A stretch of DNA of 64,000 nt from Chloroflexota bacterium. Lineage in GTDB: Bacteria > Vulcanimicrobiota > JAMCWD01. The notes beneath the pieces were generated by a model, which was given only the letters and a program-made list of their open reading frames with translations, was not told the origin of the DNA and searched no databases. The stretch spans positions 22,137 through 86,136 of the forward strand of contig JAMCWD010000040.1 of the NCBI GenBank assembly GCA_023475345.1. Reading direction: 5' to 3'. How positions within the stretch are numbered: position 1 is the first letter of the stretch; each line of letters begins with the position of its first letter. The position numbers and the translations under genes are program-made. Below are positions 78 through 33,630 of the stretch, in pieces.

Positions 78-117
78 AACATAAATTTAAAATAAATTGA
101 AAGGGAGTTGGTCCCTG

Positions 118-2535
118 ATGAAAAAATACGGAATTTTGAGCATGGTTATAACCTTCCTCGTACTTGCTTTATTATCGGCCAGCTGCGGCGGGGGAGGAGG
201 CTCTTCAGGTTCGGCCCTTGACTCGAACTCTTTAACGCTTAACCTTGCTTCAAGGGACGGTGGCCGCAGTTTCCCGCCCGGTACTTATTATTTCATGGTC
301 CAGGTGCTCGATACTTCCGGTGCGGTAATTGACGAGAAGAGGGTTGACCTGCCCGATACCTCTACAACTTTTGACGACGTGCCTTCGGGAGATATTAACG
401 TCAAAGTCGGAGCCTATGACGAAAGCGGCTGCCAGGTAGGATACGGGATGGCGGCGGTCGTCGTTCATGACGGCTATAACTCCGCCGCTCAAATATTCAT
501 ATCGTCCCAGCCCCCGGTCTGGGCATTGCTCATGCCTTCCGCCTCTTATGACGGCACTTCGATTTATAACAGGCAGTCCGAATATTCCCTGTCGGTCGTC
601 TGTAATATTTTTTCGCCCAATACGCTGCAGGCAGATTCGTGTTCGGTTACCAGGGACGGGACCAATTACCCGATGGAAGACCTGGGGCCCGGCGGAGAAA
701 CAACCATTGTAAATTACTTTTACAGCTATCCGCCCGTCAACGCCGGATACCGCCAACTTGAGGGCAGGGGGACAGGCTCGTTCTTCGAAACGCGCCTTTC
801 GCTTTCGGAAAATCAGATCCCCGGAACGTACAACTTCATATATGGAGAATCGTCAACCGATATCACTTATAACGGCACTACGCCGAGGTTGCCGGTCATC
901 CAGTCCCCGTCGCCGGACGATACCGTCGATTTCGGCAGCGATGTAACCGTAACATGGGAGGACCTCGGCCCGGATTACGGCTATATGTGCGAAGCCAGTT
1001 GGTCCAGCTCTCCGGGTACAGACATAATAAGATGGAGTTCCGTGGATCAAATCGAAATGAGTTTTCAATATCCTGAAGACATGGTAAATTTTATACTGAA
1101 TCTCCCGGACAATAACAGCGCAGTCATCCCCGCCGGCATTTTCAACGGCGACTACAGCCATGATGTAATTATATCGGTAATTGCTTTTGATAAATCCCAG
1201 GTCAGCGCCCAATCGAGGCAATCGGCAATCGAAAACCCGTTCCTGGATGTAGGAAAGCTTGTCATACCTATCGGGCAATACATCATCAAAGTTAACCCGT
1301 CAACATCGTATCTCACGCCTTATATTTCGGGCGTAACGCCTGCAAGCGCAAAGATCGGCGACGAGATAACGTTAACCGGCGGCAGGTTCGGTTCCATTCA
1401 GGGATCGAATACCGTAACCGTCGGCGGCGTCGCTTCCGGCCCGGCTACTTCATGGTCGGATACAATGGTAAGCGTGATAATACCTGCAGGCGCCTATTAC
1501 AGCACGATAACTGCAAGCGCCGTTTTCGCTCATGTAAACAATATGACCAGCAATTTAAAAGGCGTGTACATACCCGTAACTTATTACGTAAACGCGGGGT
1601 CAGGCGATGATTCTAACGATGGTTCTTTCTCTTTACCGTTCAAGACAATTACCCATGCGATGACAGTTGCTCAAAACGGCCAGACCGTGATTGTTTCGGA
1701 AGGCATATATAACGCCGCTCTCGGTGAAACATTCCCGATACTCGTAACCGACGGCACCACCATGAGGGGCGGCTATAAAAACGACTATTCGGCCTGGAAT
1801 ATGACGGCATATTTATCGATACTTGACGCAGAATCCGCCGAAAGAGTTGTTAGATGTAACTCTTTAACTTACGTCACCGAGTTGAACGGCCTAACGATAA
1901 TCAATGGTAACACGACTTCCGGAGGAGGAGGGATATATTGTTACCGCTCCGACTATGTCAATATTTTAAATTGCCAGTTGTTCAATAATAACGGAAAAGG
2001 CGGCGGGGGTGTTTACCTGTACCAGTCGGACGCCGGTGTTGTAAACTGTCTATTTGCAAATAACACCGCCGGAACCGACGGGGGCGGGGCGATACGCGTT
2101 TATCAATCTACTCCGGCAATGTCCAATTGTACTGTCGCTTTCAATTCATCAACAAGCAACGGTGGAGGAATTCTATTCAGTTCATCTTCTCCCGGAGTGG
2201 ATAACTTTATTATAACCGATAATACCGCATCGGGGAGCGGCGGAGGTATTTATTCCACCGGGGGCACTCCCACAATTACCTTCTCTGATATTTTCAATAA
2301 CACCCCGGACAATTACTCGGGCATTACCCCTGGAGTCGGTTGTATCAGCGGCGACCCGTTATACGTCAATGCGGCAGCCGCCAATTTCCACTTGCTGTCG
2401 GGATCTCCGTGTATCGATACCGGTCATCCCAATTATCTCGGCCCGCTTAACAAGGGCAGGTGGGAAACCCAGGTGGGCATCCCCGATACCGGGATAGTGG
2501 ACATGGGTTTCCATTATCTCTATGTAGCTCCGTAA
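118..2535 (+). CDS. Surface lipoprotein with IPT/TIG domain and right-handed parallel beta-helix repeats
   Basis: ATG 118 lies 10 nt after AAGGGAG (the ORF track opens at TTG 97). Signal peptide plus lipobox-like LLSASC, followed by a Gly/Ser linker. IPT/TIG-like PYISGVTPASAKIGDEITLTGGRFG...VTVGG. The C-terminal half is serial GGGGIY / GGGGVY / GGGAIR / GGGILF / GGGIYS rungs with N-rich turns, ending SPCIDTG...VDMGFHY. Confidence 0.8.
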   Translation: MKKYGILSMVITFLVLALLSASCGGGGGSSGSALDSNSLTLNLASRDGGRSFPPGTYYFMVQVLDTSGAVIDEKRVDLPDTSTTFDDVPSGDINVKVGAYDESGCQVGYGMAAVVVHDGYNSAAQIFISSQPPVWALLMPSASYDGTSIYNRQSEYSLSVVCNIFSPNTLQADSCSVTRDGTNYPMEDLGPGGETTIVNYFYSYPPVNAGYRQLEGRGTGSFFETRLSLSENQIPGTYNFIYGESSTDITYNGTTPRLPVIQSPSPDDTVDFGSDVTVTWEDLGPDYGYMCEASWSSSPGTDIIRWSSVDQIEMSFQYPEDMVNFILNLPDNNSAVIPAGIFNGDYSHDVIISVIAFDKSQVSAQSRQSAIENPFLDVGKLVIPIGQYIIKVNPSTSYLTPYISGVTPASAKIGDEITLTGGRFGSIQGSNTVTVGGVASGPATSWSDTMVSVIIPAGAYYSTITASAVFAHVNNMTSNLKGVYIPVTYYVNAGSGDDSNDGSFSLPFKTITHAMTVAQNGQTVIVSEGIYNAALGETFPILVTDGTTMRGGYKNDYSAWNMTAYLSILDAESAERVVRCNSLTYVTELNGLTIINGNTTSGGGGIYCYRSDYVNILNCQLFNNNGKGGGGVYLYQSDAGVVNCLFANNTAGTDGGGAIRVYQSTPAMSNCTVAFNSSTSNGGGILFSSSSPGVDNFIITDNTASGSGGGIYSTGGTPTITFSDIFNNTPDNYSGITPGVGCISGDPLYVNAAAANFHLLSGSPCIDTGHPNYLGPLNKGRWETQVGIPDTGIVDMGFHYLYVAP

Positions 2536-2754: not shown

Positions 2755-4239
2755 TTATTTAACGACCCTGATGGTGCCGAGCGTATCGTCAACAGGCCCC
2801 TGTATTTTCACGCCCGCCGCCAGTTCCAGCATCGCATATTCTATGATCTCATGGGTAATCTTTTCACCCGGACAGACGAGCGGAATACCCGGCGGATAAG
2901 GCGTTATCAATTCGGACGAGATCCGGCCTGCGGCATGCGGAAACGGTATGGTTTTATAATCTGCAAAGAACGCCTCGCGCGGGGTCATCACCTGGGGCGG
3001 CCAGTCCGGAAGCTGGATGCCCGACTTGCCCGAGCGGTGCTCTTCTTTCAGCCTGTTCAGATCCCCCTCCCCTTTGTGCTCAACGACAACTTTTTCCAGC
3101 GCGCGAACCAGACGGGCAACGTCTTCCCTGGTATGGGCTATGGTAATCAGGGCAAGCACATTGAACAGGTCTGACATCTCAACTTGTATGTTGTGGTCAT
3201 ACCTTAGGAACCTTTCCATCTGGTAACCTGTAAAGCCGGCTTCCACAGAACTTATAACAAGCCTTGTTTTATCCATGTTAAAAACTCCCGGCCTGCCGAG
3301 CAGTTCGTCTCCCCATGCATGAAGGCCGGGGATATTGTTTACCTGTTCCCTCGCCCATTCTGCGTTTTTAATTGCATTGTCGAGCATGGCCCGGCCGTCG
3401 AAAAACATCTGCATGCGGGCGACGTCAAGCGAGCTGACGATAATACAGGACGGGCTTGTAGAGAGGAACAGGCGAAGGATGGCATGGAGATGCCCCCTGT
3501 CAACCATGTTGCCTTTTATATGGATCATCGACCCCTGGCTCATACCGGCTATCAGCTTGTGAGTCGAATTGATGCACATATCCGCCCCGGCATCCATTGC
3601 GGATTCGGGAAGGTCGGGATGGAAGTGGAGGTGAGGTCCCCATGCTTCATCCACCATCACGACCAGGTTATTCTTATGCCCTATTTCAACAATGCTTCGA
3701 AGGTCTGCAGTGGCCCCGTAATAAGTCGGAGACAGCGCATAAATCGCCTTTGCTTCAGGATGCTCTTCTATGGCTTGTTCATATTTATCGGGAGTAACGG
3801 TATGATCGACTCTCATTTCGGGGTCGAATTCCGGCATGACATAAACAGGCATGACGCCGCTCAGGATCATCGCTCCTACGGCCGACCTGTGAGAATTCCG
3901 GGGGAGGATGATCTTGTCTCCGGGGCGGCAGGCCGCCAGGATCATGATATGGTTCCCGGACGACGAGCCGTTGATAAGGAAAAATGTGGCATCGGCACCG
4001 TAAGCTATTGCCGCCAGCTCCTGGGCGAACTTGACAGGTCCATGAGGCTGGTGCATATCGTCGAGGCCCAGTACCTGGGTACAATCGGCGGCCAACGCCT
4101 TTTCCCCGAGCAGCTCGATCATCCGCGGGTGTGCGCCGCGCCCCCTCTGGTGGCCGGGGACGTGAAACGTCAGGATATCGCTCCTTGTATAATCGAAAAG
4201 GGCGTCATAATAGGGAGTATCGCTCTGGTTGTATTTCAT
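2755..4239 (-). CDS. PLP-dependent Orn/Lys/Arg decarboxylase family protein (Bacillus SpeA/YaaO type)
   Basis: 494 aa. Motifs FHVPGHQRG, NGSSSGNH and the PLP-lysine motif INSTHKLIAGMSQGSMIH. Full-length architecture of the OKR decarboxylase major plus C-terminal domains. Confidence 0.9.
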   Translation of the reverse strand: MKYNQSDTPYYDALFDYTRSDILTFHVPGHQRGRGAHPRMIELLGEKALAADCTQVLGLDDMHQPHGPVKFAQELAAIAYGADATFFLINGSSSGNHIMILAACRPGDKIILPRNSHRSAVGAMILSGVMPVYVMPEFDPEMRVDHTVTPDKYEQAIEEHPEAKAIYALSPTYYGATADLRSIVEIGHKNNLVVMVDEAWGPHLHFHPDLPESAMDAGADMCINSTHKLIAGMSQGSMIHIKGNMVDRGHLHAILRLFLSTSPSCIIVSSLDVARMQMFFDGRAMLDNAIKNAEWAREQVNNIPGLHAWGDELLGRPGVFNMDKTRLVISSVEAGFTGYQMERFLRYDHNIQVEMSDLFNVLALITIAHTREDVARLVRALEKVVVEHKGEGDLNRLKEEHRSGKSGIQLPDWPPQVMTPREAFFADYKTIPFPHAAGRISSELITPYPPGIPLVCPGEKITHEIIEYAMLELAAGVKIQGPVDDTLGTIRVVK

Positions 4240-17874: not shown

Positions 17875-18729
17875 TCATTTCCAGAGGGCGACTTTTTTCA
17901 AAGCACGCTCCATCAGCACTCCAGTCATTTTACAACGGTATCCTTCCGTCGAGCGGAGGTCGTCTATGGGACATGATTCGGTCTGGATCAGGGTTCCCGA
18001 TTCGGCGATAAGGCTGTCGTTCAATTCTTTGCCTGCCAGCATCTCCTCACAACGGGGTGCATGGATTACAGTCGGCGCAACGGCTCCGAGGGCGATCTTT
18101 ACGTCATGAAGCCTCCCTACTTCCAATGTGCAGGAAAGCGCGAGGGAAACCTTGCTTATGGCAAGCGTCTTGCGCTGTCCCAGCTTGAGGAAGCAGCCCC
18201 TTGCGCCTTCTTTTTTCGGAAAAGAAAAACCTGTAATTATTTCTTTTTCTTTACAGACCGTTTTGCCTGGGCCGGTGAAAAATTTTTCAAGCGGCAGTGA
18301 CCTGGGGCCCGCGGGGCACTCCAGGTGGATTGTAGTGTCAAGTGTATAAAGGGCCGTAACGCAATCTCCGGCGGGAGAGGCGTTGCCCGAATTTCCGCCG
18401 ATGGTTCCCCGGTTTCTTATCTGGGGGCTGCCCACCTGTGATGCCGCGTCGCTCAGCGCCGGGGCGTATTTCTTAATAAGCGGATGTTCCGAAAGTGCAG
18501 TATGAGTTACGAGCGATCCGATATGAATGCTGTCCCCTTCGTCTTTTATCCCGGTCAATTCTTCGATCCCCGAAATGTCCAGCCATAATGCCGGCGGGAG
18601 CAACCTGTCTTTGGCCTTACAGACGAGATCCGTCCCGCCTGCAAGATAATACAAAGGCCCGGAATGACCGGATGCTTTTTCAAACGCTTCGGGAATGCTT
18701 TTAACTCTTTTAACGACTGCCTGGATCAT
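17875..18729 (-). CDS. FAD-binding (medium) subunit of a xanthine dehydrogenase / CO dehydrogenase family molybdoenzyme
   Basis: LAGGTDL, RNRGTIGGN and C-terminal DDLRSTEGYRCKM are typical of CoxM/XdhB-type FAD-binding subunits. Confidence 0.85.
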   Translation of the reverse strand: MIQAVVKRVKSIPEAFEKASGHSGPLYYLAGGTDLVCKAKDRLLPPALWLDISGIEELTGIKDEGDSIHIGSLVTHTALSEHPLIKKYAPALSDAASQVGSPQIRNRGTIGGNSGNASPAGDCVTALYTLDTTIHLECPAGPRSLPLEKFFTGPGKTVCKEKEIITGFSFPKKEGARGCFLKLGQRKTLAISKVSLALSCTLEVGRLHDVKIALGAVAPTVIHAPRCEEMLAGKELNDSLIAESGTLIQTESCPIDDLRSTEGYRCKMTGVLMERALKKVALWK

Positions 18730-19206
18730 CTACTTCACCTCCCGGGCGGCGTTCATGACCGCTTCCTCAATTTTCATATAACCGGTACAACGGCATATAT
18801 TGCCGGACAGCGCTTCCTTTATTTGTTTTCTATCGGGGTTCGGATTTTTCATAAGGAGAGCATAAGCCGTCATGATAAACCCCGGGGTACAGAAGCCGCA
18901 TTGTATTGCCCCGTTTTCCATGAAGGCGCGCTGGATGGGGTGGGGGTTTTCAAGATCGCCCAGCCCTTCTATGGTAAGGATCTCGGCGCCTTCAACCTGT
19001 GTGATCATCAACATGCAAGAACATACAGGCTCACCGTTCATAAGCACGGTACAGGCTCCGCATTCCCCCTTGCCGCACCCTTCCTTCGTCCCTGTGAGGT
19101 TCAGGCGCTCCCTCAATACTTCAAGCAGCGTATGGTGTGACGGGACTTCGACTTCCACGGGCGACCCGTTCAATATGAATGAAACTTTAACTTTTTCTGA
19201 CAGCAT
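18730..19206 (-). CDS. [2Fe-2S]-binding (small) subunit of a xanthine dehydrogenase / CO dehydrogenase family molybdoenzyme
   Basis: GCGKGECGACTV and QCGFCTPGFIM...GNICRCTGY form the two canonical 2Fe-2S motifs. Confidence 0.9.
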   Translation of the reverse strand: MLSEKVKVSFILNGSPVEVEVPSHHTLLEVLRERLNLTGTKEGCGKGECGACTVLMNGEPVCSCMLMITQVEGAEILTIEGLGDLENPHPIQRAFMENGAIQCGFCTPGFIMTAYALLMKNPNPDRKQIKEALSGNICRCTGYMKIEEAVMNAAREVK

Positions 19207-19353: not shown

Positions 19354-21093
19354 TTACTTCCTGCTCATCATCTTTCCGACTTTTTTCTTTGCGGCGTCGA
19401 GAGCCTGCCCGATCTCGTACTTGATCATCTGCTGCCAGTAATGGCCGGTAACCCCCATCGATTCAAATTTTTCGAACCGTTCGGACAGCAGTTTCGACGG
19501 CGTTTTTTTCAGAAGCTTCCCCAGGTGATACAGGAGGCATGATTTCAGGTCGCCTGCGGCTGTCCGGAAATCCTGGCCTGCTCCCCCGACCGGCTCGGGG
19601 ACTATCTGGTCTATGATGTTCAGGTTCAAAAGGTCGGGCGCGGTCAGTTTGAGGGAGCCTGCCACTTCTTCGGCCTTGTCGGCGTCGCCCCAGAGTATGC
19701 TTGCGGCTCCTTCGGGAGATATGACCGAATATATTGCGTTCTCCTGCATCAATACGGCGTCTCCCACCGCAAGCGCTATCGCCCCGCCGCTTCCGCCCTC
19801 CCCTATTACCGAGCAAATTACCGGTATGGGGATGCTGCTCATCGTCGCAAGGCATTGGGCAAGCGTCATGGCTATGCCCCGCTGTTCCGATTCGAAACCG
19901 GGATAAGCTCCCGGCGTATCGACGAAAGTTAAAAGCGGGATATTGAACTTTGTTGCAAGCTCCATCATGCGGAGAGCTTTGCGGTAGCCTTCGGGACGGG
20001 CCATGCCGTGCCTCCTGAACTCCCTTTCTTCATCGTTCCTGCCCCGCTCTTCGCCGATGACTGCAACGGGGATGCCTTCCAGCGTCCCGACGCCGATGAT
20101 TATTGCCGGGTCGTCTCCGAAGTTTCTGTCCCCGTGCAGCTCGACGAAATCATCTATAAGGTATTCGATATAAGAAAGGCTTGTCGGGCGGTCAGGACGT
20201 CTTGCAAGCAGGACGGTTTCCCATGCGTCCTTTTTCCCGATTTTTTTCTTTTTGGGAGCCGGGTATTTCTTTACCTTCGGCTTTCCACCCGTCCCCAGGT
20301 GGCTTACGAGACACGAAAGCGTGCCTTTCAATTTCTTCCTGTCTTCGATGATGTCAATCATGCCGTGCTTTTTGAGAAACTCCGCCGTATGCGATTCCGG
20401 GGGGAGCCTTTCGCCGAATACCTGTTCGATGACCCTGGGACCGACAAATCCCACAAGCGCTCCCGGCTCCGATATTATCACGTCGCCAAGGGACGAAAAG
20501 CTTGCCGATATCCCGCCCGTGGTCGGGTCGGCCTGGACTGAAAGATACAACAGGCCGGAGCGGTCATGCCTTGCCGCCGCCGATGCTGTTTTGGCCATCT
20601 GCATGAGGGAAAGCATGCCTTCCTGCATCCTGGCCCCGCCCGAATTTACAACGCTAATCACCGGCAGCTTCTTCTCCCTTGCGCGCGAAAAAGCATACGA
20701 CACCTTCTCCCCGACAACAGACCCCATAGTCCCGCCCATGAATTCGAAATCCAGGAAGCAGAATACGGAGCGCGTCCCGTTTATATTCCCCTCCCCGATA
20801 ATACAACCGTCATGGAGACCTGTCTTTTCCTGTGCCTGTCTTATCCTCTCCATGTAAGTCTTGCGGTCTTTGAAATTAAGGGGATCAACAGAGGTCAAAT
20901 CTTTTTCCCATTCGGAGAACGTGCCGGCATCTACAACGAGCTTCACGCGCTCTCTTGCTGGCATGTGGAGGTGATGGTTACACTCGGGGCATAACATTGC
21001 GTTTTTGGAAAGCTCTGTCCTGTTGAATTCGTTCTGACATTCCGGGCACGAGATGAAATCCCAGTCGCCTGCGGAATCTGTTCCTTTTTTCAT
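19354..21093 (-). CDS. accD/accA: Acetyl-CoA carboxylase carboxyltransferase, fused beta (AccD) and alpha (AccA) subunits
   Basis: N-terminal AccD zinc ribbon CPECQNEF...CPECNHH and GGSMG-type motif (FMGGTMGSVVGEK). The C-terminal half has AccA motifs (RPEGYRKALRMMELATKFNIPLLTFVDTPGAYPG, GEGGSGGA). Confidence 0.9.
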   Translation of the reverse strand: MKKGTDSAGDWDFISCPECQNEFNRTELSKNAMLCPECNHHLHMPARERVKLVVDAGTFSEWEKDLTSVDPLNFKDRKTYMERIRQAQEKTGLHDGCIIGEGNINGTRSVFCFLDFEFMGGTMGSVVGEKVSYAFSRAREKKLPVISVVNSGGARMQEGMLSLMQMAKTASAAARHDRSGLLYLSVQADPTTGGISASFSSLGDVIISEPGALVGFVGPRVIEQVFGERLPPESHTAEFLKKHGMIDIIEDRKKLKGTLSCLVSHLGTGGKPKVKKYPAPKKKKIGKKDAWETVLLARRPDRPTSLSYIEYLIDDFVELHGDRNFGDDPAIIIGVGTLEGIPVAVIGEERGRNDEEREFRRHGMARPEGYRKALRMMELATKFNIPLLTFVDTPGAYPGFESEQRGIAMTLAQCLATMSSIPIPVICSVIGEGGSGGAIALAVGDAVLMQENAIYSVISPEGAASILWGDADKAEEVAGSLKLTAPDLLNLNIIDQIVPEPVGGAGQDFRTAAGDLKSCLLYHLGKLLKKTPSKLLSERFEKFESMGVTGHYWQQMIKYEIGQALDAAKKKVGKMMSRK

Positions 21094-21131: not shown

Positions 21132-21845
21132 TCATCGGAGATTTTTCGAATACAGGATGATGTTGTTCACATCGTCCCAGATATTATCGGTAAGCACCTG
21201 TATTTCTTCGGGGGTTTTTTTAGCGCCTTCTTCCGTGATCTGTTTCGTTATTTCGCTTATGAGGCGGATCTTGTTCCAGCCGTCGGCTTTGTTCCTTGTA
21301 GCGGAGTACCATATCGCCCATGCGGTAACGGTTTTCAGGTGCTTGCTCCCCAGGTCGTTATGGAGCTTGCCGTTATCGTAAAGCAGGCGGGCAGTCCTGA
21401 TGAGTGAGATGGGAATCGAATATTCTTTTTCGCTTGAGTAAAGCGGGAGAACCCCATAGCGCGCAAGTTCGCTTTTGTCCTTGATATTTTCAGGCAAAGG
21501 CGGCGGGCTTAAATACGGGTCGAGGCAGTAGCCGGTGATTGTAAATTTCCCTCCGGGCGGGACGAGGCTTGCCTTTTGATCCCGGTCTATGATTACTTTC
21601 TGGTATTTTTCATTCTGCGGGACGAAAACCGTGCCTTCGTTGACAATGATATCGACCGGTTCTTCAACGCTGTACTTCACGGTGAAAACATCGCCTGCGG
21701 ATTCTCCCTTCCCCTCCATGTAAATCTTGATCCTGTCGTCTGAAGCCGCCTGGTAAAAAGATACAGCTTCATCCGCCGTTAAAGGCAGGATTGAGAGAAA
21801 AACCAGCATCAATAAAAATAACGATATTTTACTTTTCATGATCAT
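21132..21845 (-). CDS. Secreted hypothetical protein, paralogue A (YCLDP motif)
   Basis: ATG 21845 overlaps the upstream stop as ATGA (translational coupling). Signal peptide MIMKSKISLFLLMLVFLSILPLTA. TGYCLDPYLSPPP then TAWAIW. Confidence 0.7.
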   Translation of the reverse strand: MIMKSKISLFLLMLVFLSILPLTADEAVSFYQAASDDRIKIYMEGKGESAGDVFTVKYSVEEPVDIIVNEGTVFVPQNEKYQKVIIDRDQKASLVPPGGKFTITGYCLDPYLSPPPLPENIKDKSELARYGVLPLYSSEKEYSIPISLIRTARLLYDNGKLHNDLGSKHLKTVTAWAIWYSATRNKADGWNKIRLISEITKQITEEGAKKTPEEIQVLTDNIWDDVNNIILYSKNLR

Positions 21846-22558
21846 CTTTTGCGCGTGAGATCCATGAAATCCCACGATGTCTTAAACAGCTCCCCTCCTG
21901 AAGACTTTGCTATGACCTCCCCTTCCTCTATGCCTATCTTCTCAAGCATCAGGGAACTTTTTCTCCAGTAAGTCCCGGCGGAATATTGAAGATCCTTCGG
22001 GTGTACGAACGGGGCGAAGAAGTCCTTCATCATCTGTAAATCCATAGGCGTTGTGAGCTTCCAGACCGCCGCCTGGGTCGGGTAGTCGAGAAAATCGGGG
22101 ACGTCCAACGAACTCGGCCTGTCTTTGCTTGAATTCTTGAGAAGCTCATCAATCTTGCCGCCGGACGGGGACATAAGTTCGATATTCATTACATTTCCCG
22201 AAGGGGGGGATTTTTTCCTGGGGTCGAGGCCGAAAGTAACAAGCCTGATTTTTTTCTCGTAATGCGGGGCGACTGAAAACGCTTCGGACCTGCCCACTAT
22301 GAGATCGGTATCGCCGGGCGCAGAGCTTTTGAGTCTCATGCCGACAGGGATGCTAAGATTGAGATATTCGTTGCTGTCGTTCCTTAATGACAACTCCGCT
22401 TCCATCGGGTATCCCATGCTCACGATTCTCCAGTTTATAGAGATGTTTTTAACAGCTTCGTAAAACGGGTTGTACACGAGTTTGTCGGCGTGAACCTTTG
22501 AGGCGGCAAAAGATAAAATGAGAACCGCCAGTATGGTGTATCCGTATATTTTGCGCAT
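21842..22558 (-). CDS. Secreted hypothetical protein, paralogue B (TQAAVW motif)
   Basis: Likely start at MRKIYGYTILAVLILSFAASKVHA (22558; the track opens at 22612). TFGLDPRKKSPP then PTQAAVWKL. Same domain order as paralogue A. Confidence 0.7.
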   Translation of the reverse strand: MRKIYGYTILAVLILSFAASKVHADKLVYNPFYEAVKNISINWRIVSMGYPMEAELSLRNDSNEYLNLSIPVGMRLKSSAPGDTDLIVGRSEAFSVAPHYEKKIRLVTFGLDPRKKSPPSGNVMNIELMSPSGGKIDELLKNSSKDRPSSLDVPDFLDYPTQAAVWKLTTPMDLQMMKDFFAPFVHPKDLQYSAGTYWRKSSLMLEKIGIEEGEVIAKSSGGELFKTSWDFMDLTRKR

Positions 22559-22794
22559 AAATGCCGTCCCCACCGAAAATATTTTGTATAAACACATCCG
22601 ACCTGAATACACTTATATTAACATAACCGAAAGCCGGGGTTCAACCTGGGGTCAATGAATTTGTCACCGGACAGGGAAAATGTCACCCCCAAGTAATCTG
22701 AGAAAATGTTACTCCTTAAACGGACAGCGCAGAATTAAAGACCTCAGTTCTTGCTCCGGATCTGTGCGATTTATTATGAGAGCTTGTGCCGACC

Positions 22795-23115: not shown

Positions 23116-25005
23116 ATGAGTTTGAAAAAGGAAAATAAATCCGTCAGCCTTCTTAAGATAATCATAATTTTGTTGCTCGTTTCTTTTTGCCTGCCCGCCG
23201 CAGGATGTTCCAAACAGGATCGGATTAAAAATTTAATTAAAATGTATGATTATCCAAATTCGCATGTTGCCGACTGTGCGAATTTGACCCTGGAAGAGAT
23301 GGGAAATGCTACTTTCCCTTTCCTGATCGATGCTATGAAGAATAAAAGCCCGAGAATTCGTCATTATGCAGCAATGAAACTGGGAAAAATGCGCGCTCCC
23401 GGCTCGGCTGAACTTTTGCTTGCCGCTTTGAAGGACAAAGATGAAATGGCCCAGTGTGGGGCGGCATGGGGGTTGGGTTACTTAAAAAATCCCCGGACGG
23501 TCGAACCTTTAATAGCTTTTTTAAAAGATGAAAATCCGAAAGTAAGGATGGGGGCGGCATTTGCCCTGGGTATGATTAGAGACCCGCGTGCGGTTGATCC
23601 CTTGATTGCCGTTTTAAATGATAAGGACGATTATGTCCGATCGTGTTCGGCAGATGCACTGGGGAGAATAAATGATCCCCGTGCTGCGGTGCCTTTGAGA
23701 GCCGCTTTGAAGGATAAAAATAAAGATGTGCGTGAGCGGGCTTTGGAAGCACTTAAAGAAATAGGAGATCCCCGTGTGGTTGACTCGTTGATAGCCGCTT
23801 TGAAAGATACAGACGATTATGTCCGGAGAAGTTCTGCGGATGATCTGTGGAGGATAAAAGACCCGCGCGCGGTTGAGCCTCTGCTCGCCGCTTTGAAGGA
23901 TAAAGATGATCATGTCCGAGCAAGCGCGGCTACGGCACCGGGGGAGATAAAAGACCCGCGTGCTGTTAAGCCTTTGCTTGCTGCTTTGAAGGATACAAGC
24001 GATCAAGTCCGATCGAGTTCGGCATATGCACTGGGAGGAATAAAAGACTCTCGCGCTGTTGAGCCTTTAATTGCCGCTTTGAAAGATGAAAGCCCATTTG
24101 CCCGCTCGGGGGTAGCCTGGGCACTGGGAGAATTAAAAGATCCCCGGGCTGTGAAGCCATTAATTACAACTTTGAAAGATAAAGACTATTATGTCCGATC
24201 GTGTTCGGCAGATGCATTGGGGAAGATAAAAGATCCCCGCGCGGTTGAGGCTCTGCTCGCCGCTTTGAAGGATAAAGATGAGCATGTCCGGGCAAGCGCG
24301 GCAGATGCGTTGAAATCAATAAAAGACTCTCGTACTGCTGTTTACCCCGCCAGAGAAAGAGGTGCCGCTCCAGGTAATGAATCGAGAGCAATTAAAGACT
24401 CTCGCGCTTTTGAGTCTTTTATTGCCTTATTGAAAGATAAAAGTATGACAATGACTATGCGAGAATCGGTGGCAAGATCACTGGGAGAGACAAAAGATCC
24501 ACGCGCGGTCGAGCCTTTGATCGAAGTATTAAATGGTGAAAATTCTCTAACGCAAAATAATATAGGGGATTTATTGGGATGGCTGGGTGATATAAGGACA
24601 AAGATATCTGCATCTATATACAATCCTCTAATTATGTCTTTATTTAGCTACCCAGATTTCAGATCCAGCATTGCAGGGGCACTCAGCAAAATAAACGATC
24701 CGCGCGCGGCTGAAGTATTGAATAAAGGGCTGAAGGATCTGGACATTGATATTATCCGCGGAGCTTATAAGTATTTTATTGCCAGAGGCGAGCCGGGTTC
24801 GGAAGATATTCTCATATATACCATGAACGTCTCAGAAGAGTATTCATATAAAGGCTTTGAAATGGCTGCATGCTTTTTAAGTTCCGGCAATGAAAAATTG
24901 GCAAATGCAGCGCTCGAATGGACAAAAAGAAACCGAGAATTGGACATCCCGCCCCCCGACGAAGACTCTCCCAAATGGGGCAGTGCGCCCATCAACACTA
25001 AATAA
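23116..25005 (+). CDS. HEAT (PBS-lyase type) repeat lipoprotein
   Basis: Signal plus lipobox LPAAGC. About 12 or more repeats of DPRAVEPLIAALKDKDxxVRxxAAxALGxIK. Confidence 0.85.
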   Translation: MSLKKENKSVSLLKIIIILLLVSFCLPAAGCSKQDRIKNLIKMYDYPNSHVADCANLTLEEMGNATFPFLIDAMKNKSPRIRHYAAMKLGKMRAPGSAELLLAALKDKDEMAQCGAAWGLGYLKNPRTVEPLIAFLKDENPKVRMGAAFALGMIRDPRAVDPLIAVLNDKDDYVRSCSADALGRINDPRAAVPLRAALKDKNKDVRERALEALKEIGDPRVVDSLIAALKDTDDYVRRSSADDLWRIKDPRAVEPLLAALKDKDDHVRASAATAPGEIKDPRAVKPLLAALKDTSDQVRSSSAYALGGIKDSRAVEPLIAALKDESPFARSGVAWALGELKDPRAVKPLITTLKDKDYYVRSCSADALGKIKDPRAVEALLAALKDKDEHVRASAADALKSIKDSRTAVYPARERGAAPGNESRAIKDSRAFESFIALLKDKSMTMTMRESVARSLGETKDPRAVEPLIEVLNGENSLTQNNIGDLLGWLGDIRTKISASIYNPLIMSLFSYPDFRSSIAGALSKINDPRAAEVLNKGLKDLDIDIIRGAYKYFIARGEPGSEDILIYTMNVSEEYSYKGFEMAACFLSSGNEKLANAALEWTKRNRELDIPPPDEDSPKWGSAPINTK

Positions 25006-32094: not shown

Positions 32095-33630
32095 TCAATT
32101 ATTGCCGGGGATATTCGTGCCTCGCGTCCCGTCTTCTTTCACCTTCTCAAAATTCATATCTTCAAGGTTAATGATATTTTCATCGGGAGGCGTGTCTGTT
32201 TTTTCATCCGAAGCGGCAGGTGCTGCAGGAGTTTCTTCTGCACCGGGGGCCGGCTCGTCTGTCTGAACTTCCGTAGTTTCTTCAACCAGGGGCTTTTCCG
32301 CCGGGGTTTCTTCATTCGTTTTTTGGGCGGAGGTAACTTCCGGGGCGGGCAGGCTCGACTCGCTCGGAGGCCCGTGCCAGTCCTTGCCTATTATAATAGT
32401 GAAATCCAGCGTCTCATTAATTCCCGAGTCGTCTCTCGAAAGCTGGGTCTTCCCTATGATATCCATAATTGACAGCGCCATATTGGGCCGGTTGTTGTAA
32501 TCGACTATTTCGGTGAATTCACAATCCTGTGTAGGGGCATTGCCGACATCCACCACGTTATAGCCTTTTTGTTTCAATATCTCGGCCGCCTGGGCCGCTG
32601 CGCCCTGTGTGCCGCTCCCGTTCAATACCTGGATCTTTATGTCGGCAGGATCAAGAACTTCCCTGCCTTCCAGGAGCCTCTGGACCAGCATTTTTTTCTT
32701 GTTATCATCCGGTATTATATAACTGGCTCCGCCAATATTCTCATCGTCGCCGTCAATTACGCCCTTTGTAATTCTGTCCATCTTGAAGTTCTTGTAAACT
32801 TTTGCAAGATCCATAAGATCCAGCACCGACATGTCGGTTTCCAACATTTTTTTGAAAGCGCGCGATATCTTGTCGGCATTTACAAGATTGGAAGGCTTCT
32901 TCAACTCCTTGATTAACGCCGCTATGAATTGCTGCTGTCTCCTGATCCTGCCCCTGTCGCCTTCGGGATCATGCCTGAACCTGCAATAGCCGACGGCCTG
33001 CTCGCCGTTAAGCCGTTGTATTCCTTTTTTAAGATGGACATGGAGATGCCCCCAGTTATCGTCATAGTCCATGTCCTTTTCCACGTCAACCGCCACCCCG
33101 CCTATGGCGTCCACCAGGTCTTTCATGGCATAACTTCTGATGATCACGTAATGATCTATGTCCGTCTCCAGGAAATTCCCGATAGTTTTTTTCGCAAGCT
33201 CCACCCCGCCCAGCGAATACGCCGCATTTACCTTATCATACCCATAGCCGTCGGCAAGCTCGACACGCGAATCCCTGGGGATGGAAAGCATGTTCAGTTC
33301 TTTGCCTTCCCTGTCCACCCTTACTACGAATATCGTATCGGAGCGGGCGTCCTTGGTATAGTGGATGCCCCTCTCGTTATAGTTATAGTCAAGGCCCATG
33401 ACCAGTATCTTTAGTGAATCCTTGTCCTTGAACGCTATCTGGCCGGGCTTGCTGATCATGATGCGGACGATATCCATTACCGGGGTGCCTTTTTCATGCT
33501 GCTTCGAAACAAGATACAGGAACGCCGCCCCGGAAACTATTATCCCGAAGATAAACACGATCACTAATACGATTAATATTCTTTTCCAGTTGACTTTCAT
33601 TTTCAATCCCTTATTTCTCATAATATACAT
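32095..33630 (-). CDS. LytR-CpsA-Psr (LCP) family protein with LytR_C-like domain and acidic/Pro-rich tail
   Basis: TM anchor, then ILVMGLDYN...RSDTIFVVRVD...MLSIPRDSRVEL...KVNAAYSLGG (LCP core). Later IKIQVLNGSGTQGAAAQAAEILKQKGYNV. Confidence 0.85.
   Translation of the reverse strand: MYIMRNKGLKMKVNWKRILIVLVIVFIFGIIVSGAAFLYLVSKQHEKGTPVMDIVRIMISKPGQIAFKDKDSLKILVMGLDYNYNERGIHYTKDARSDTIFVVRVDREGKELNMLSIPRDSRVELADGYGYDKVNAAYSLGGVELAKKTIGNFLETDIDHYVIIRSYAMKDLVDAIGGVAVDVEKDMDYDDNWGHLHVHLKKGIQRLNGEQAVGYCRFRHDPEGDRGRIRRQQQFIAALIKELKKPSNLVNADKISRAFKKMLETDMSVLDLMDLAKVYKNFKMDRITKGVIDGDDENIGGASYIIPDDNKKKMLVQRLLEGREVLDPADIKIQVLNGSGTQGAAAQAAEILKQKGYNVVDVGNAPTQDCEFTEIVDYNNRPNMALSIMDIIGKTQLSRDDSGINETLDFTIIIGKDWHGPPSESSLPAPEVTSAQKTNEETPAEKPLVEETTEVQTDEPAPGAEETPAAPAASDEKTDTPPDENIINLEDMNFEKVKEDGTRGTNIPGNN

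What the first reader, a model, noticed from the sequence alone, without database searches (positions are those of the whole stretch)
21132..22612. Translationally coupled secreted paralogues that each retain only one half of a thioester-domain-like Cys/Gln motif pair
The two genes overlap as ATGA (stop of 21842..22558 and start at 21845). Both encode signal-peptide proteins with the same layout. In the downstream protein the conserved segments read TGYCLDPYLSPPP and, about 65 residues later, TAWAIW. In the upstream protein the aligned segments read TFGLDPRKKSPP and, about 50 residues later, TQAAVW. In Gram-positive adhesin thioester domains the established signatures are [YFL]-C-hydrophobic-[DENQ] (often followed by a Pro a few residues on) and T-Q-x-A-[IV]-W, and the Cys and Gln form an internal thioester. 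Here one paralogue has the Cys motif but Ala in place of Gln. The other has a perfect TQAAVW but Gly in place of Cys. Complementary loss in a coupled gene pair could mean an intermolecular Cys-Gln thioester or crosslink between the two proteins. It could also mean two decayed, non-reactive relatives. The Cys-Gln spacing is much shorter than in canonical TEDs, so any relationship is distant at best.
Basis: inference. Interest (0 to 1): 0.65.

Follow-up and report, generated by a model that had tools for sequence, protein, structure and literature searches.

The report
Permuted thioester-domain-like secreted gene pair
Two overlapping genes encode secreted paralogues of a rare, unannotated family distantly related to the covalent-adhesion "thioester domains" of Gram-positive bacteria; one copy keeps both likely bond-forming residues and the other has lost both, so the proposed "split" Cys/Gln pair is not what the sequences show.

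Summary
There are two minus-strand genes, A (22558..21842) and B (21845..21132). They share an ATGA overlap, both have signal-peptide-like N-termini, and the quoted motifs are present. An exhaustive HMMER search found a rare family of about 46 metagenomic representatives with a ~205-aa domain. A profile built without A or B hits both of them. Several members reach Pfam's thioester-domain model (PF08341; 26.8 and 23.0 bits, cut-off 22). Their Cys sits at the same profile position as the essential Cys of the pLS20 TIE adhesin.

The interpretation rests on a wrong premise. In real TEDs the TQxxΦW glutamine is a dispensable helper, and the bond-forming Gln lies in a separate ΦQζΦΦ motif. The family has such a motif (P-x5-[YV]-Q-[RE]-M), but 25 residues before the Cys rather than after it. 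This Q–C–T order, against the canonical C–T–Q, suggests a circular permutation. That Gln is lost only where the Cys is lost (A and P0038). B therefore keeps Cys and Gln and lacks only the helper Gln, while A lacks both reactive residues.

The best reading is one putatively thioester-competent protein plus an inert paralogue. Caveats: Foldseek found no TED fold, no orthologous pairs exist, and the Cys–Gln distance could not be measured.

The parts
21842..22558 (-). Gene A: 238-aa secreted paralogue with no Cys in the mature protein. It has lost both putative reactive residues.
   Evidence: ORF and translation. Family HMM 35.6 bits, E 2.4e-10 among 684 ORFs. AF2 model pLDDT 69, with the β-sandwich at 77-94 and the same element order as B.
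22487..22558 (-). Signal-peptide-like N-terminus of A (MRKIYGYTILAVLILSFAASKVHA).
   Evidence: Read from the sequence. Inference only, no predictor was run.
22307..22309 (-). A Thr84 (full-length numbering), in the family column of the candidate bond-forming Gln (GDTDLIV against vQrMmv).
   Evidence: hmmalign and MAFFT columns.
22202..22237 (-). A TFGLDPRKKSPP. This is a Cys-motif remnant with Gly110 (22231..22229) in place of the Cys.
22061..22078 (-). A TQAAVW, an intact TQxxΦW helper motif on a predicted helix.
   Evidence: The role of the motif is taken from PMC6194298 and PMC4450167.
21842..21845 (-). ATGA overlap of the A stop and the B start.
   Evidence: Translational coupling is inferred from the overlap and from the lack of an obvious Shine-Dalgarno sequence before B.
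21132..21845 (-). Gene B: 237-aa secreted stand-alone member of the family, with a single Cys in the mature protein.
   Evidence: Family HMM 161 bits. 48 relatives in the exhaustive search. AF2 pLDDT 95.3, pTM 0.90.
21774..21845 (-). Signal-peptide-like N-terminus of B (MIMKSKISLFLLMLVFLSILPLTA).
   Evidence: Read from the sequence. Inference only.
21588..21623 (-). B VPQNEKYQKVII, a P-x5-ΦQζΦΦ motif. Gln82 (mature Gln58, 21602..21600) is the candidate thioester Gln.
   Evidence: Gln in 43 of 44 informative representatives, and lost only where the Cys is lost. hhalign aligns it with the Gln that the pLS20 study modelled as bond-forming.
21498..21533 (-). B GYCLDPYLSPPP, a [YF]CΦ[DE] thioester-Cys motif. 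Cys107 (mature Cys83, 21527..21525) lies at the end of the last β-strand of the model.
   Evidence: Homologues place this Cys at Pfam TED profile position 4.
21309..21326 (-). B TAWAIW, a TQxxΦW helper motif with Gln replaced by Ala (Ala175, 21323..21321) and the invariant Trp kept.

Best explanation
A and B are tandem, probably co-translated, Sec-exported paralogues. They belong to a rare, unannotated domain family that is a divergent and apparently circularly permuted relative of the bacterial thioester domain (TED).

In this family the three TED signature motifs occur in the order Q (P-x5-ΦQζΦΦ, on the N-terminal seven-stranded β-sandwich), then C (G[YF]C[LI]DPxxxPP, at the end of the last strand), then T (T[VI][IT]Q[RW]A[LI]W, on a helix). 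The canonical order is C, T, Q.

B retains the Cys (mature Cys83) and the β-strand Gln (mature Gln58). It is therefore the copy that could form an internal Cys–Gln thioester by itself and use it to attach covalently to a nucleophile on some extracellular target. Its only deviation is Gln to Ala in the helper TQ motif, which is dispensable in Cpa.

A has lost both reactive residues (Gly and Thr) but keeps the fold and the TQ motif. It is a non-reactive paralogue, perhaps a structural partner or regulator of B.

Shown here: paralogy, family membership, motif conservation and co-loss, and profile similarity to TED. Inferred: the permutation, Gln58 as the bond partner, the thioester chemistry, any adhesion role, and any A–B interaction.
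For: (1) Family. The exhaustive HMMER search gave 48 hits, of which 46 are real members, and most carry the domain at the C-terminus of 400-700-aa proteins.

(2) Near-invariant columns among the 46 representatives: Cys 44/45, Gln58 43/44, Trp155 46/46, and the TQ position Gln 42 with Glu 4.

(3) Co-loss. The only two Cys-less sequences (A, and P0038 with C to L) are the only two that lack Gln58 (Thr and Ser). Both keep the TQ motif. Fisher p = 9e-4.

(4) Pfam TED (PF08341). 13 of 42 domains hit at E<=1. P0021 scores 26.8 bits and P0004 scores 23.0 bits over profile 2-100/102, against a cut-off of 22. The experimentally supported pLS20 TIE scores only 24.4 bits. The Cys is at profile position 4 in 5 of 5 family matches and in pLS20.

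(5) Literature. The thioester Gln lies in ΦQζΦΦ on a β-strand, and the TQxxΦW Gln and Trp are not essential.

(6) hhalign of the family against 11 plasmid class II TEDs. The Cys/helix block scores 27.5, against column shuffles of 11.2±2.1 (0 of 100 reach it). The N-terminal β-sandwich block scores 19.5-21, against 10.6±2.2 (0 of 100). That block aligns family 'vl.P.d..yQ.Mmv' to 'Llf.P..sn.QrL', which contains pLS20 Gln256. The order of the two blocks is swapped relative to the canonical TED.

(7) The AF2 model of B is very confident: a seven-stranded sandwich with the Cys at the end of the last strand, followed by helices. A has the same layout.

(8) Mature B has exactly one Cys and mature A has none, so the Cys does not form a disulfide. 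No His is conserved in the family, so a Cys-His catalytic dyad is unlikely.
Against: Foldseek of the confident B model against the PDB gave no match with E<0.001 and no TED among the top 50. BFVD likewise gave nothing. A permuted topology would weaken Foldseek but should not erase the similarity.

A and B themselves do not hit PF08341, even at E<=10. A family profile finds no solved TED by sequence, although pLS20 TIE does not either.

The hhalign and HMM similarities to class II TEDs are motif-sized and individually weak (probability 12%; P 0.0025 and 0.027). The shuffle null is lenient.

The Cys83–Gln58 distance in the model could not be read, because no coordinates are returned.

The co-loss rests on only two events. 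B's Gln to Ala in the TQ motif is unique in the family, so B could also be impaired. No orthologues exist to test purifying selection on either gene.
Confidence: 0.5

Rival explanations
1. First reader's model. B supplies the Cys and A supplies the Gln of TQAAVW, and the two form an intermolecular thioester or cross-link, so the pair is a split thioester domain.
For: The gene pair is coupled and the substitutions at the Cys and TQ positions are reciprocal. B's Gln to Ala at the TQ position is unique among the 46 representatives, all of which have Gln or Glu there.
Against: The TQxxΦW Gln is not the bond-forming residue in any characterised TED, and it is dispensable in Cpa. B has its own ΦQζΦΦ Gln58. 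Four Cys-containing members have Glu at the TQ position. A has also lost Gln58, as has the other Cys-less member P0038, which looks like whole-site decay rather than division of labour. No other family locus examined has such a pair.
Confidence: 0.05
2. The family is not a thioester former. The invariant Cys has another role, for example a catalytic nucleophile of an unrecognised hydrolase or transferase, metal or cofactor ligation, or redox sensing. The TED-like motifs would then reflect only remote ancestry or convergence.
For: No structural match to TEDs. A and B are below all Pfam and NCBIfam thresholds. 20 of 46 relatives are fused to an HExxH domain, an architecture never described for TEDs. 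The Gln motif lies on the 'wrong' side of the Cys.
Against: No conserved His, Asp or second Cys accompanies the Cys. Three independent TED motifs are all present. Two members exceed the Pfam TED cut-off across the whole profile. Cys and Gln58 are lost together.
Confidence: 0.25
3. Both genes are decayed, non-reactive relics of the family. B is disabled by the TQ to TA change and A by loss of Cys and Gln. They have a purely structural role or none.
For: B's Ala at the TQ position is unique in the family. A is highly divergent, at 35.6 bits against 161 for B. The helical half of A's model has low confidence. The pair is seen only in this organism.
Against: Both ORFs are intact with signal peptides. 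B matches the family profile strongly and folds at pLDDT 95. Mutating the TQ Gln did not abolish the thioester in Cpa.
Confidence: 0.15

Closest known systems
Class II bacterial thioester domains (BaTIE, SaTIE, EfmTIE86; pLS20 TIE adhesin)
   Same: The [YF]C[ILV][DE][PH]xxxxP Cys motif is nearly identical (YCIDPDKPAP against GYCLDPxxxPP). Both have a P-x5-ΦQ[RK][LM] Gln motif carried by a seven-stranded β-sandwich. Both have a helical bundle after the Cys. Pfam PF08341 scores are similar (24.4 bits for pLS20, 23-27 for the best family members).
   Different: The motif order is Q-C-T instead of C-T-Q, as if the chain were cut between helix α3 and the β-sandwich and the termini rejoined. There is no isopeptide stalk, LPXTG or sortase context. 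The proteins are either stand-alone (A and B here) or fused to HExxH, coiled-coil or other N-terminal regions. They occur on metagenomic contigs with LPS heptosyltransferase, DUF481 and pseudopilin neighbours rather than in Bacillota. Foldseek detects no similarity. No thioester has been demonstrated.
Class I TEDs (SfbI, Cpa, FbaB, CpTIE, PnTIE)
   Same: Both have the Cys motif and a helical TQxxΦW motif about 60 residues after the Cys. The family consensus TV[IT]Q[RW]A[LI]W and A's TQAAVW fit it, and the Trp is invariant.
   Different: Class I TEDs have no β-sandwich, and their Gln strand follows the helices. They are cell-wall-anchored adhesins of Gram-positive pathogens.
α2-macroglobulin / complement C3-type thioester (CGEQ)
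   Same: The chemistry is the same concept, an internal Cys–Gln thioester used for covalent capture.
   Different: A and B have no CGEQ motif. That fold is an unrelated α/α-toroid, and its Cys and Gln are three residues apart.

Membership tests
Bacterial thioester domain (TED, Pfam PF08341; TIE proteins) | [YFL]-C-Φ-ζ motif with the Cys in a β-strand | tested here: met
   B has G-Y-C-L-D, with the Cys at the end of strand 75-83 of the AF2 model. The column is Cys in 44 of 45 representatives. A does not meet this feature: it has Gly at the position.
Bacterial thioester domain (TED, Pfam PF08341; TIE proteins) | Bond-forming Gln in a ΦQζΦΦ β-strand motif, C-terminal to the helices | tested here: inconclusive
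   B has Y-Q-K-V-I (mature Gln58). The column is Gln in 43 of 44 representatives, is lost together with the Cys, and aligns to the pLS20 Gln256 region. However, it lies 25 residues N-terminal to the Cys, so the order is not canonical. A has Thr at this position.
Bacterial thioester domain (TED, Pfam PF08341; TIE proteins) | Helical TQxxΦW motif about 60 residues after the Cys (common, not universal, not essential) | tested here: met
   A has TQAAVW. B has TAWAIW, with the Gln lost and the Trp kept. The family column is Gln 42, Glu 4, and the Trp is 46/46. The motif sits on a predicted helix, and the spacing matches Pfam profile positions 4 to about 63, the latter extrapolated ungapped.
Bacterial thioester domain (TED, Pfam PF08341; TIE proteins) | Score at or above Pfam's gathering threshold (22 bits) on PF08341 | tested here: not met
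   A and B give no PF08341 hit at E<=10. Among relatives, 13 of 42 hit at E<=1. Two domain sequences pass (26.8 and 23.0 bits) and one is just below (21.5 bits).
Bacterial thioester domain (TED, Pfam PF08341; TIE proteins) | TED fold (six-stranded β-barrel plus three-helix bundle) recognisable against solved TEDs | tested here: not met
   Foldseek of the pLDDT-95 model of B against the PDB gave no hit with E<0.001 and no TED in the top 50. A permutation-aware structural comparison was not available.
Bacterial thioester domain (TED, Pfam PF08341; TIE proteins) | Physical Cys–Gln thioester (-17 Da, continuous density, amine reactivity) | not testable with these tools
   This needs MS or crystallography. 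Even the modelled Cys–Gln distance could not be read, because model coordinates are not returned.
TIE-type surface adhesin architecture | N-terminal TED, then an isopeptide or ester stalk, then an LPXTG sortase signal | tested here: not met
   A and B are single-domain proteins of about 213 aa after signal-peptide removal and contain no LPxTG. In relatives the domain is at the extreme C-terminus.
α2-macroglobulin / C3 thioester | CGEQ motif | tested here: not met
   The motif is absent from both translations.

The most novel reading that the evidence does not exclude
The family is a functional, circularly permuted thioester domain operating outside Gram-positive cell-wall adhesins. It would occur in uncultivated, apparently diderm bacteria, often fused to a zincin-like HExxH domain. 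In this window, B would form an internal Cys83–Gln58 thioester, and its inert, co-translated paralogue A would act as its dedicated partner, possibly as the covalent acceptor of B's thioester.
Probability: 0.3. Interest if true: 0.75.

Novelty: new variant of a known kind. Interest (0 to 1): 0.55.

Why it matters
Thioester domains are described only in Gram-positive, sortase-anchored adhesins. They are the basis of covalent host binding and of protein-ligation tools. A permuted version would be new in several respects: a Q-C-T motif order, no slipknot-type Gln hairpin at the C-terminus, occurrence as a free secreted protein or fused to a putative metallopeptidase, and presence in other lineages. 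It would widen the known distribution and architecture of covalent-adhesion chemistry, and it offers a compact 210-residue scaffold to test.

The pair also gives a natural contrast for experiments, since B retains both reactive residues and A has lost both. Finally, the result corrects an easy mistake: the TQxA[IV]W glutamine is not the thioester partner.

Tried and rejected
- Direct scans of A and B against Pfam, NCBIfam, PHROGs and PDB sequences gave nothing meaningful.
- The word-indexed 5.8-billion-protein search returned only the window's own proteins, even when queried with the family alignment.
- Pairwise BLASTP and a two-sequence MAFFT alignment did not establish paralogy or align the TQ motifs.
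- Synteny through the accD-accA neighbour failed. The closest genome (60% identity) has an unrelated gene upstream.
- The metagenome locus scan found only two fragmentary loci.
- The family profile against PDB sequences gave only a spurious designed armadillo-repeat hit, through 'ViQeAvW'. pLS20 TIE finds no solved TED by phmmer either, so this test is uninformative.
- Foldseek against the PDB and BFVD gave no significant hits.
- P0048 from the homologue list was discarded as a repeat-protein artefact.
- The two small genes after P0030 looked like a possible A/B-type pair, but they do not match the family HMM.
- Gln178 was considered as an alternative thioester partner. I rejected it because three Cys-containing members lack it and the Cys-less P0038 keeps it.
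- A papain-like or transglutaminase-like Cys-His mechanism was considered and set aside, because no His is conserved.
- A literature search for permuted or Gram-negative TEDs found nothing relevant in the held library.
Full report
**What is in the sequence**

Two genes lie on the minus strand. Gene A runs 22558..21842 and encodes 238 aa. Gene B runs 21845..21132 and encodes 237 aa. A's TGA stop and B's ATG start overlap as ATGA. A second ATG lies two codons further on, and no Shine-Dalgarno sequence is visible before B. Translational coupling is therefore a reasonable inference, but it is not shown.

Both products begin with a basic n-region, a hydrophobic core and an AxA-like site (…SKVHA|DK and …PLTA|DE). 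I read these as Sec signal peptides by eye. Mature B has exactly one Cys and mature A has none.

B's stop is followed 38 nt later by a strong AAGGAGG ribosome-binding site and an accD-accA fusion gene. No terminator-like site lies between them on that strand.

**Are they paralogues, and of what?**

Direct comparison is not convincing: BLASTP gives E = 0.096. Neither protein hits Pfam, NCBIfam, PHROGs or PDB sequences. The word-indexed search of 5.8 billion proteins returned only the window's own proteins.

The exhaustive HMMER scan of 1.84 billion cluster representatives with mature B gave 48 hits at E ≤ 1e-3, of which 22 were at E ≤ 1e-10. After I removed one repeat artefact, 46 representatives remained. 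They share a domain of about 205 aa, mostly at the extreme C-terminus of 400-700-aa proteins. All come from metagenome assemblies and are unnamed or called 'hypothetical protein'.

A profile built from these 46 sequences, without A or B, scores B at 161 bits. It scores A at 35.6 bits, E = 2.4e-10 among 684 ORFs from the window and fetched loci. With family members as guides, MAFFT aligns A along the whole domain. AF2 gives B a very confident model (pLDDT 95.3, pTM 0.90). The model has a short helix, seven β-strands with the Cys at the end of the last strand, and then five helices. A's model is weaker (pLDDT 69; β-sandwich 77-94) but has the same order of elements. So A and B are real paralogues, and A is much the more diverged.

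**Relation to thioester domains**

The family shows near-invariant G[YF]C[LI]DPxxxPP and T[VI][IT]Q[RW]A[LI]W motifs. When each domain was scanned against Pfam on its own, PF08341 (TED) was by far the most frequent hit, in 13 of 42 members at E ≤ 1.

- The P0021 domain scores 26.8 bits (E 7.1e-6) and the P0004 domain scores 23.0 bits. Both cover profile positions 2-100 of 102 and exceed the 22-bit gathering score. P0025 scores 21.5 bits.
- As a calibration, the pLS20 TIE adhesin, whose Cys68 is experimentally essential (PMC8092201), scores only 24.4 bits.
- In all five family matches that reach the profile's N-terminus, the family Cys sits at profile position 4, the same position as the pLS20 Cys.
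- By ungapped extrapolation from the matched stretches, the TQ-motif Gln maps to about profile position 63.

The Cys-to-TQ spacing of 52-75 residues is therefore the canonical one, not an unusually short one. A distant TED relationship is supported at the sequence-profile level.

Walden et al. 2015 (PMC4450167) and Miller et al. 2018 (PMC6194298) define three TED motifs in the order C, T, Q. The bond-forming Cys lies in [YFL]CΦζ. [quoted passage not shown] The bond-forming Gln lies in a weak ΦQζΦΦ motif on a β-strand after the helices.

So the Gln that A retains and B lacks is the helper Gln, not the thioester partner. Consistent with this, four Cys-containing family members have Glu at that position.

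**A second conserved Gln, on the other side of the Cys**

The family alignment contains another near-invariant Gln, at mature position 58 in B. It lies in P-x5-[YVF]-Q-[REKT]-[MV]-[MIL], 25 residues before the Cys, in the β-sandwich. It is Gln in 43 of 44 informative representatives. This fits ΦQζΦΦ.

I extracted eleven class II TEDs from Bacillota plasmids. At their bond-forming Gln they read LPNTSSYQRLM, MPTNSNLQRLS, NPSSSNVQRLV and similar. This is the same pattern as the family's tPSDtgYQrMi, with Pro six residues (five in one sequence) before the Gln.

The family HMM's two best local matches on pLS20 TIE are YCIDPDKPAP and LLYLPNTSSYQRLMSS. The second contains Gln256, which the pLS20 study modelled as the bond partner.

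I then ran hhalign of the family against the 11-sequence TED alignment.

- The Cys/helix block scores 27.5, while 100 column shuffles give 11.2±2.1 with a maximum of 18.0.
- The N-terminal sandwich block scores 19.5-21, while shuffles give 10.6±2.2 with a maximum of 19.1.
- The sandwich block aligns with the C-terminal β-sandwich and Gln strand of the class II TED, Gln on Gln.
- If the family alignment is permuted to put residues 64-213 before residues 1-63, a single alignment runs from the Cys motif to the Gln motif.
- The reciprocal search with the TED HMM puts family members in 17 of the top 18 ranks among 815 sequences. At least eight of them show the swapped two-part match.

Each of these scores is weak on its own. 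hhalign gives a probability of 12%, and the family members are not independent of one another. Together they point to a circular permutant of the class II architecture, cut between helix α3 and the β-sandwich.

**Genetic support for Cys–Gln58 as a functional pair**

Only two sequences in the set lack the Cys: A (Gly) and P0038 (Leu). These are also the only two that lack Gln58 (Thr and Ser). Both retain the TQ motif. The table is 45/0/0/2, Fisher p = 9e-4.

A third conserved Gln, at position 178, is a poorer candidate. Three Cys-containing members lack it, and P0038 keeps it.

**What this means for the pair**

B has the Cys, Gln58, Trp155 and the rest of the signature. Its only deviation is Ala for the helper Gln, which is unique among the representatives. 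A has lost both candidate reactive residues (and Gln178 as well) but keeps the fold, LDP..PP, TQAAVW and the C-terminal helix motif.

So the pattern is not two complementary halves. One copy retains both reactive residues and the other has lost both. My preferred mechanism is that B forms an internal Cys83–Gln58 thioester and uses it for covalent attachment to an extracellular nucleophile, while A is an inert paralogue made with it, whose role as partner, regulator or acceptor is unknown. The thioester chemistry and any A–B interaction are inferences.

**Evidence against, and limits**

- Foldseek of B's model found no PDB match with E < 0.001 and no TED among the top 50. It found nothing in BFVD either. 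Permutation and the two-lobe shape would hurt a sequential aligner, but this remains a failed test.
- No orthologous pair exists. A and B occur only as identical copies on two short Logan contigs. The nearest genome by the accD-accA neighbour lacks them. The metagenome scan added only two fragments. Conservation of the pattern cannot be tested.
- Other family loci that I examined do not contain tandem paralogues.

**Family context**

- 20 of 46 representatives carry an HExxHxx[QD] motif 150-230 residues upstream of the Cys. In one of these (P0015) it lies downstream instead. This looks like a zincin-type domain, but it has no Pfam match.
- Other members have coiled-coil, TIG or repeat N-terminal regions.
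- One stand-alone member overlaps the stop codon of a repeat protein of more than 1060 aa that looks like a β-helix.
- Neighbouring genes on longer contigs include an LPS-type heptosyltransferase family (Glyco_transf_9), DUF481 and N-methyl pseudopilins. I take this to suggest diderm hosts; this reading rests on my own knowledge of those families.
- None of the members has LPXTG or an isopeptide stalk.
- The window's own organism is unidentified. Its genes include DUF1565/TIG, LytR_cpsA_psr, and TPR and HEAT proteins.
- A full-text search found no description of permuted or non-Gram-positive TEDs in the held library.

**Verdict**

The TED relationship is supported by profiles but not by fold search. 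The 'split Cys/Gln' reading is not supported.

What is there is a new variant of a known kind: a rare, probably permuted TED-like family, represented here by one copy that retains both reactive residues and one that has lost both. Interest is moderate to high for specialists, conditional on a direct test of the thioester.

Noticed in passing
window 19354..21093 (-): A 579-aa accD-accA fusion (acetyl-CoA carboxylase carboxyltransferase β+α) starts 38 nt after gene B behind a strong AAGGAGG site, so it may be co-transcribed with the secreted pair. Its closest genome relative (60% identity, a 'Bacillota bacterium' MAG) has a different gene upstream.
   Followed up: partly
window 23116..25005 (+): A 629-aa protein with a lipobox-like N-terminus (…LPAAGC) is built from about 14 HEAT-like 'DPRAVEPLIAALKD…' repeats. 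It is transcribed divergently from the pair across a ~500-bp intergenic region.
   Followed up: no
family representatives P0003-P0043 (e.g. P0004 residues 143-150, P0012 residues 208-215): 20 of 46 relatives carry an HExxHxx[QD] motif in an N-terminal region that has no Pfam match. This looks like an undescribed zincin-like domain fused to the TED-like domain. In P0015 the HExxH motif lies C-terminal of the TED-like domain, and P0029 also carries the TED-like domain near its N-terminus.
   Followed up: partly
P0034 (694 aa), residues ~188-632: The TED-like domain is split by an insertion of about 400 residues of coiled-coil-like repeats between the Cys motif and the TQ motif (spacing 444 against the usual 57-75).
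   Followed up: no
L022 2..3184 and 3181..3975: The stand-alone family member P0047 overlaps by 4 nt the end of a protein of more than 1060 aa. That protein is Gly/Ala/Thr/Asn-rich and resembles filamentous-haemagglutinin-type β-helix adhesins. This is another coupled arrangement, but with an unrelated partner.
   Followed up: partly
L010 9141..9848 and 9852..10544: Two adjacent unannotated genes of 235 and 230 aa directly follow family member P0030. They looked like a possible A/B-type pair but do not match the family HMM.
   Followed up: yes
P0038 (399 aa, JGI contig of 1292 nt): This is the only other family member without the Cys (Leu instead). It has also lost the β-strand Gln (Ser) and keeps VVQRAIW. 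It is an independent example of the same co-loss seen in gene A.
   Followed up: partly
window 17875..19206 (-): Two adjacent genes look, from their sequences alone, like the FAD-binding (284 aa) and [2Fe-2S] (158 aa, CGxCxV…CxxC and GFCTPG/CRCTGY motifs) subunits of a xanthine-dehydrogenase/CO-dehydrogenase-type molybdoenzyme. This is from my own knowledge of the family; no tool was run.
   Followed up: no
window 97..2535 (+), 32095..33630 (-), 54550..57066 (-): Pfam hits in these ORFs are a DUF1565 plus TIG protein, a LytR_cpsA_psr plus LytR_C protein, and an 838-aa protein combining cNMP-binding, a sigma-54-interaction AAA+ domain and a 4Fe-4S domain. They give no clear indication of the host phylum.
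   Followed up: partly
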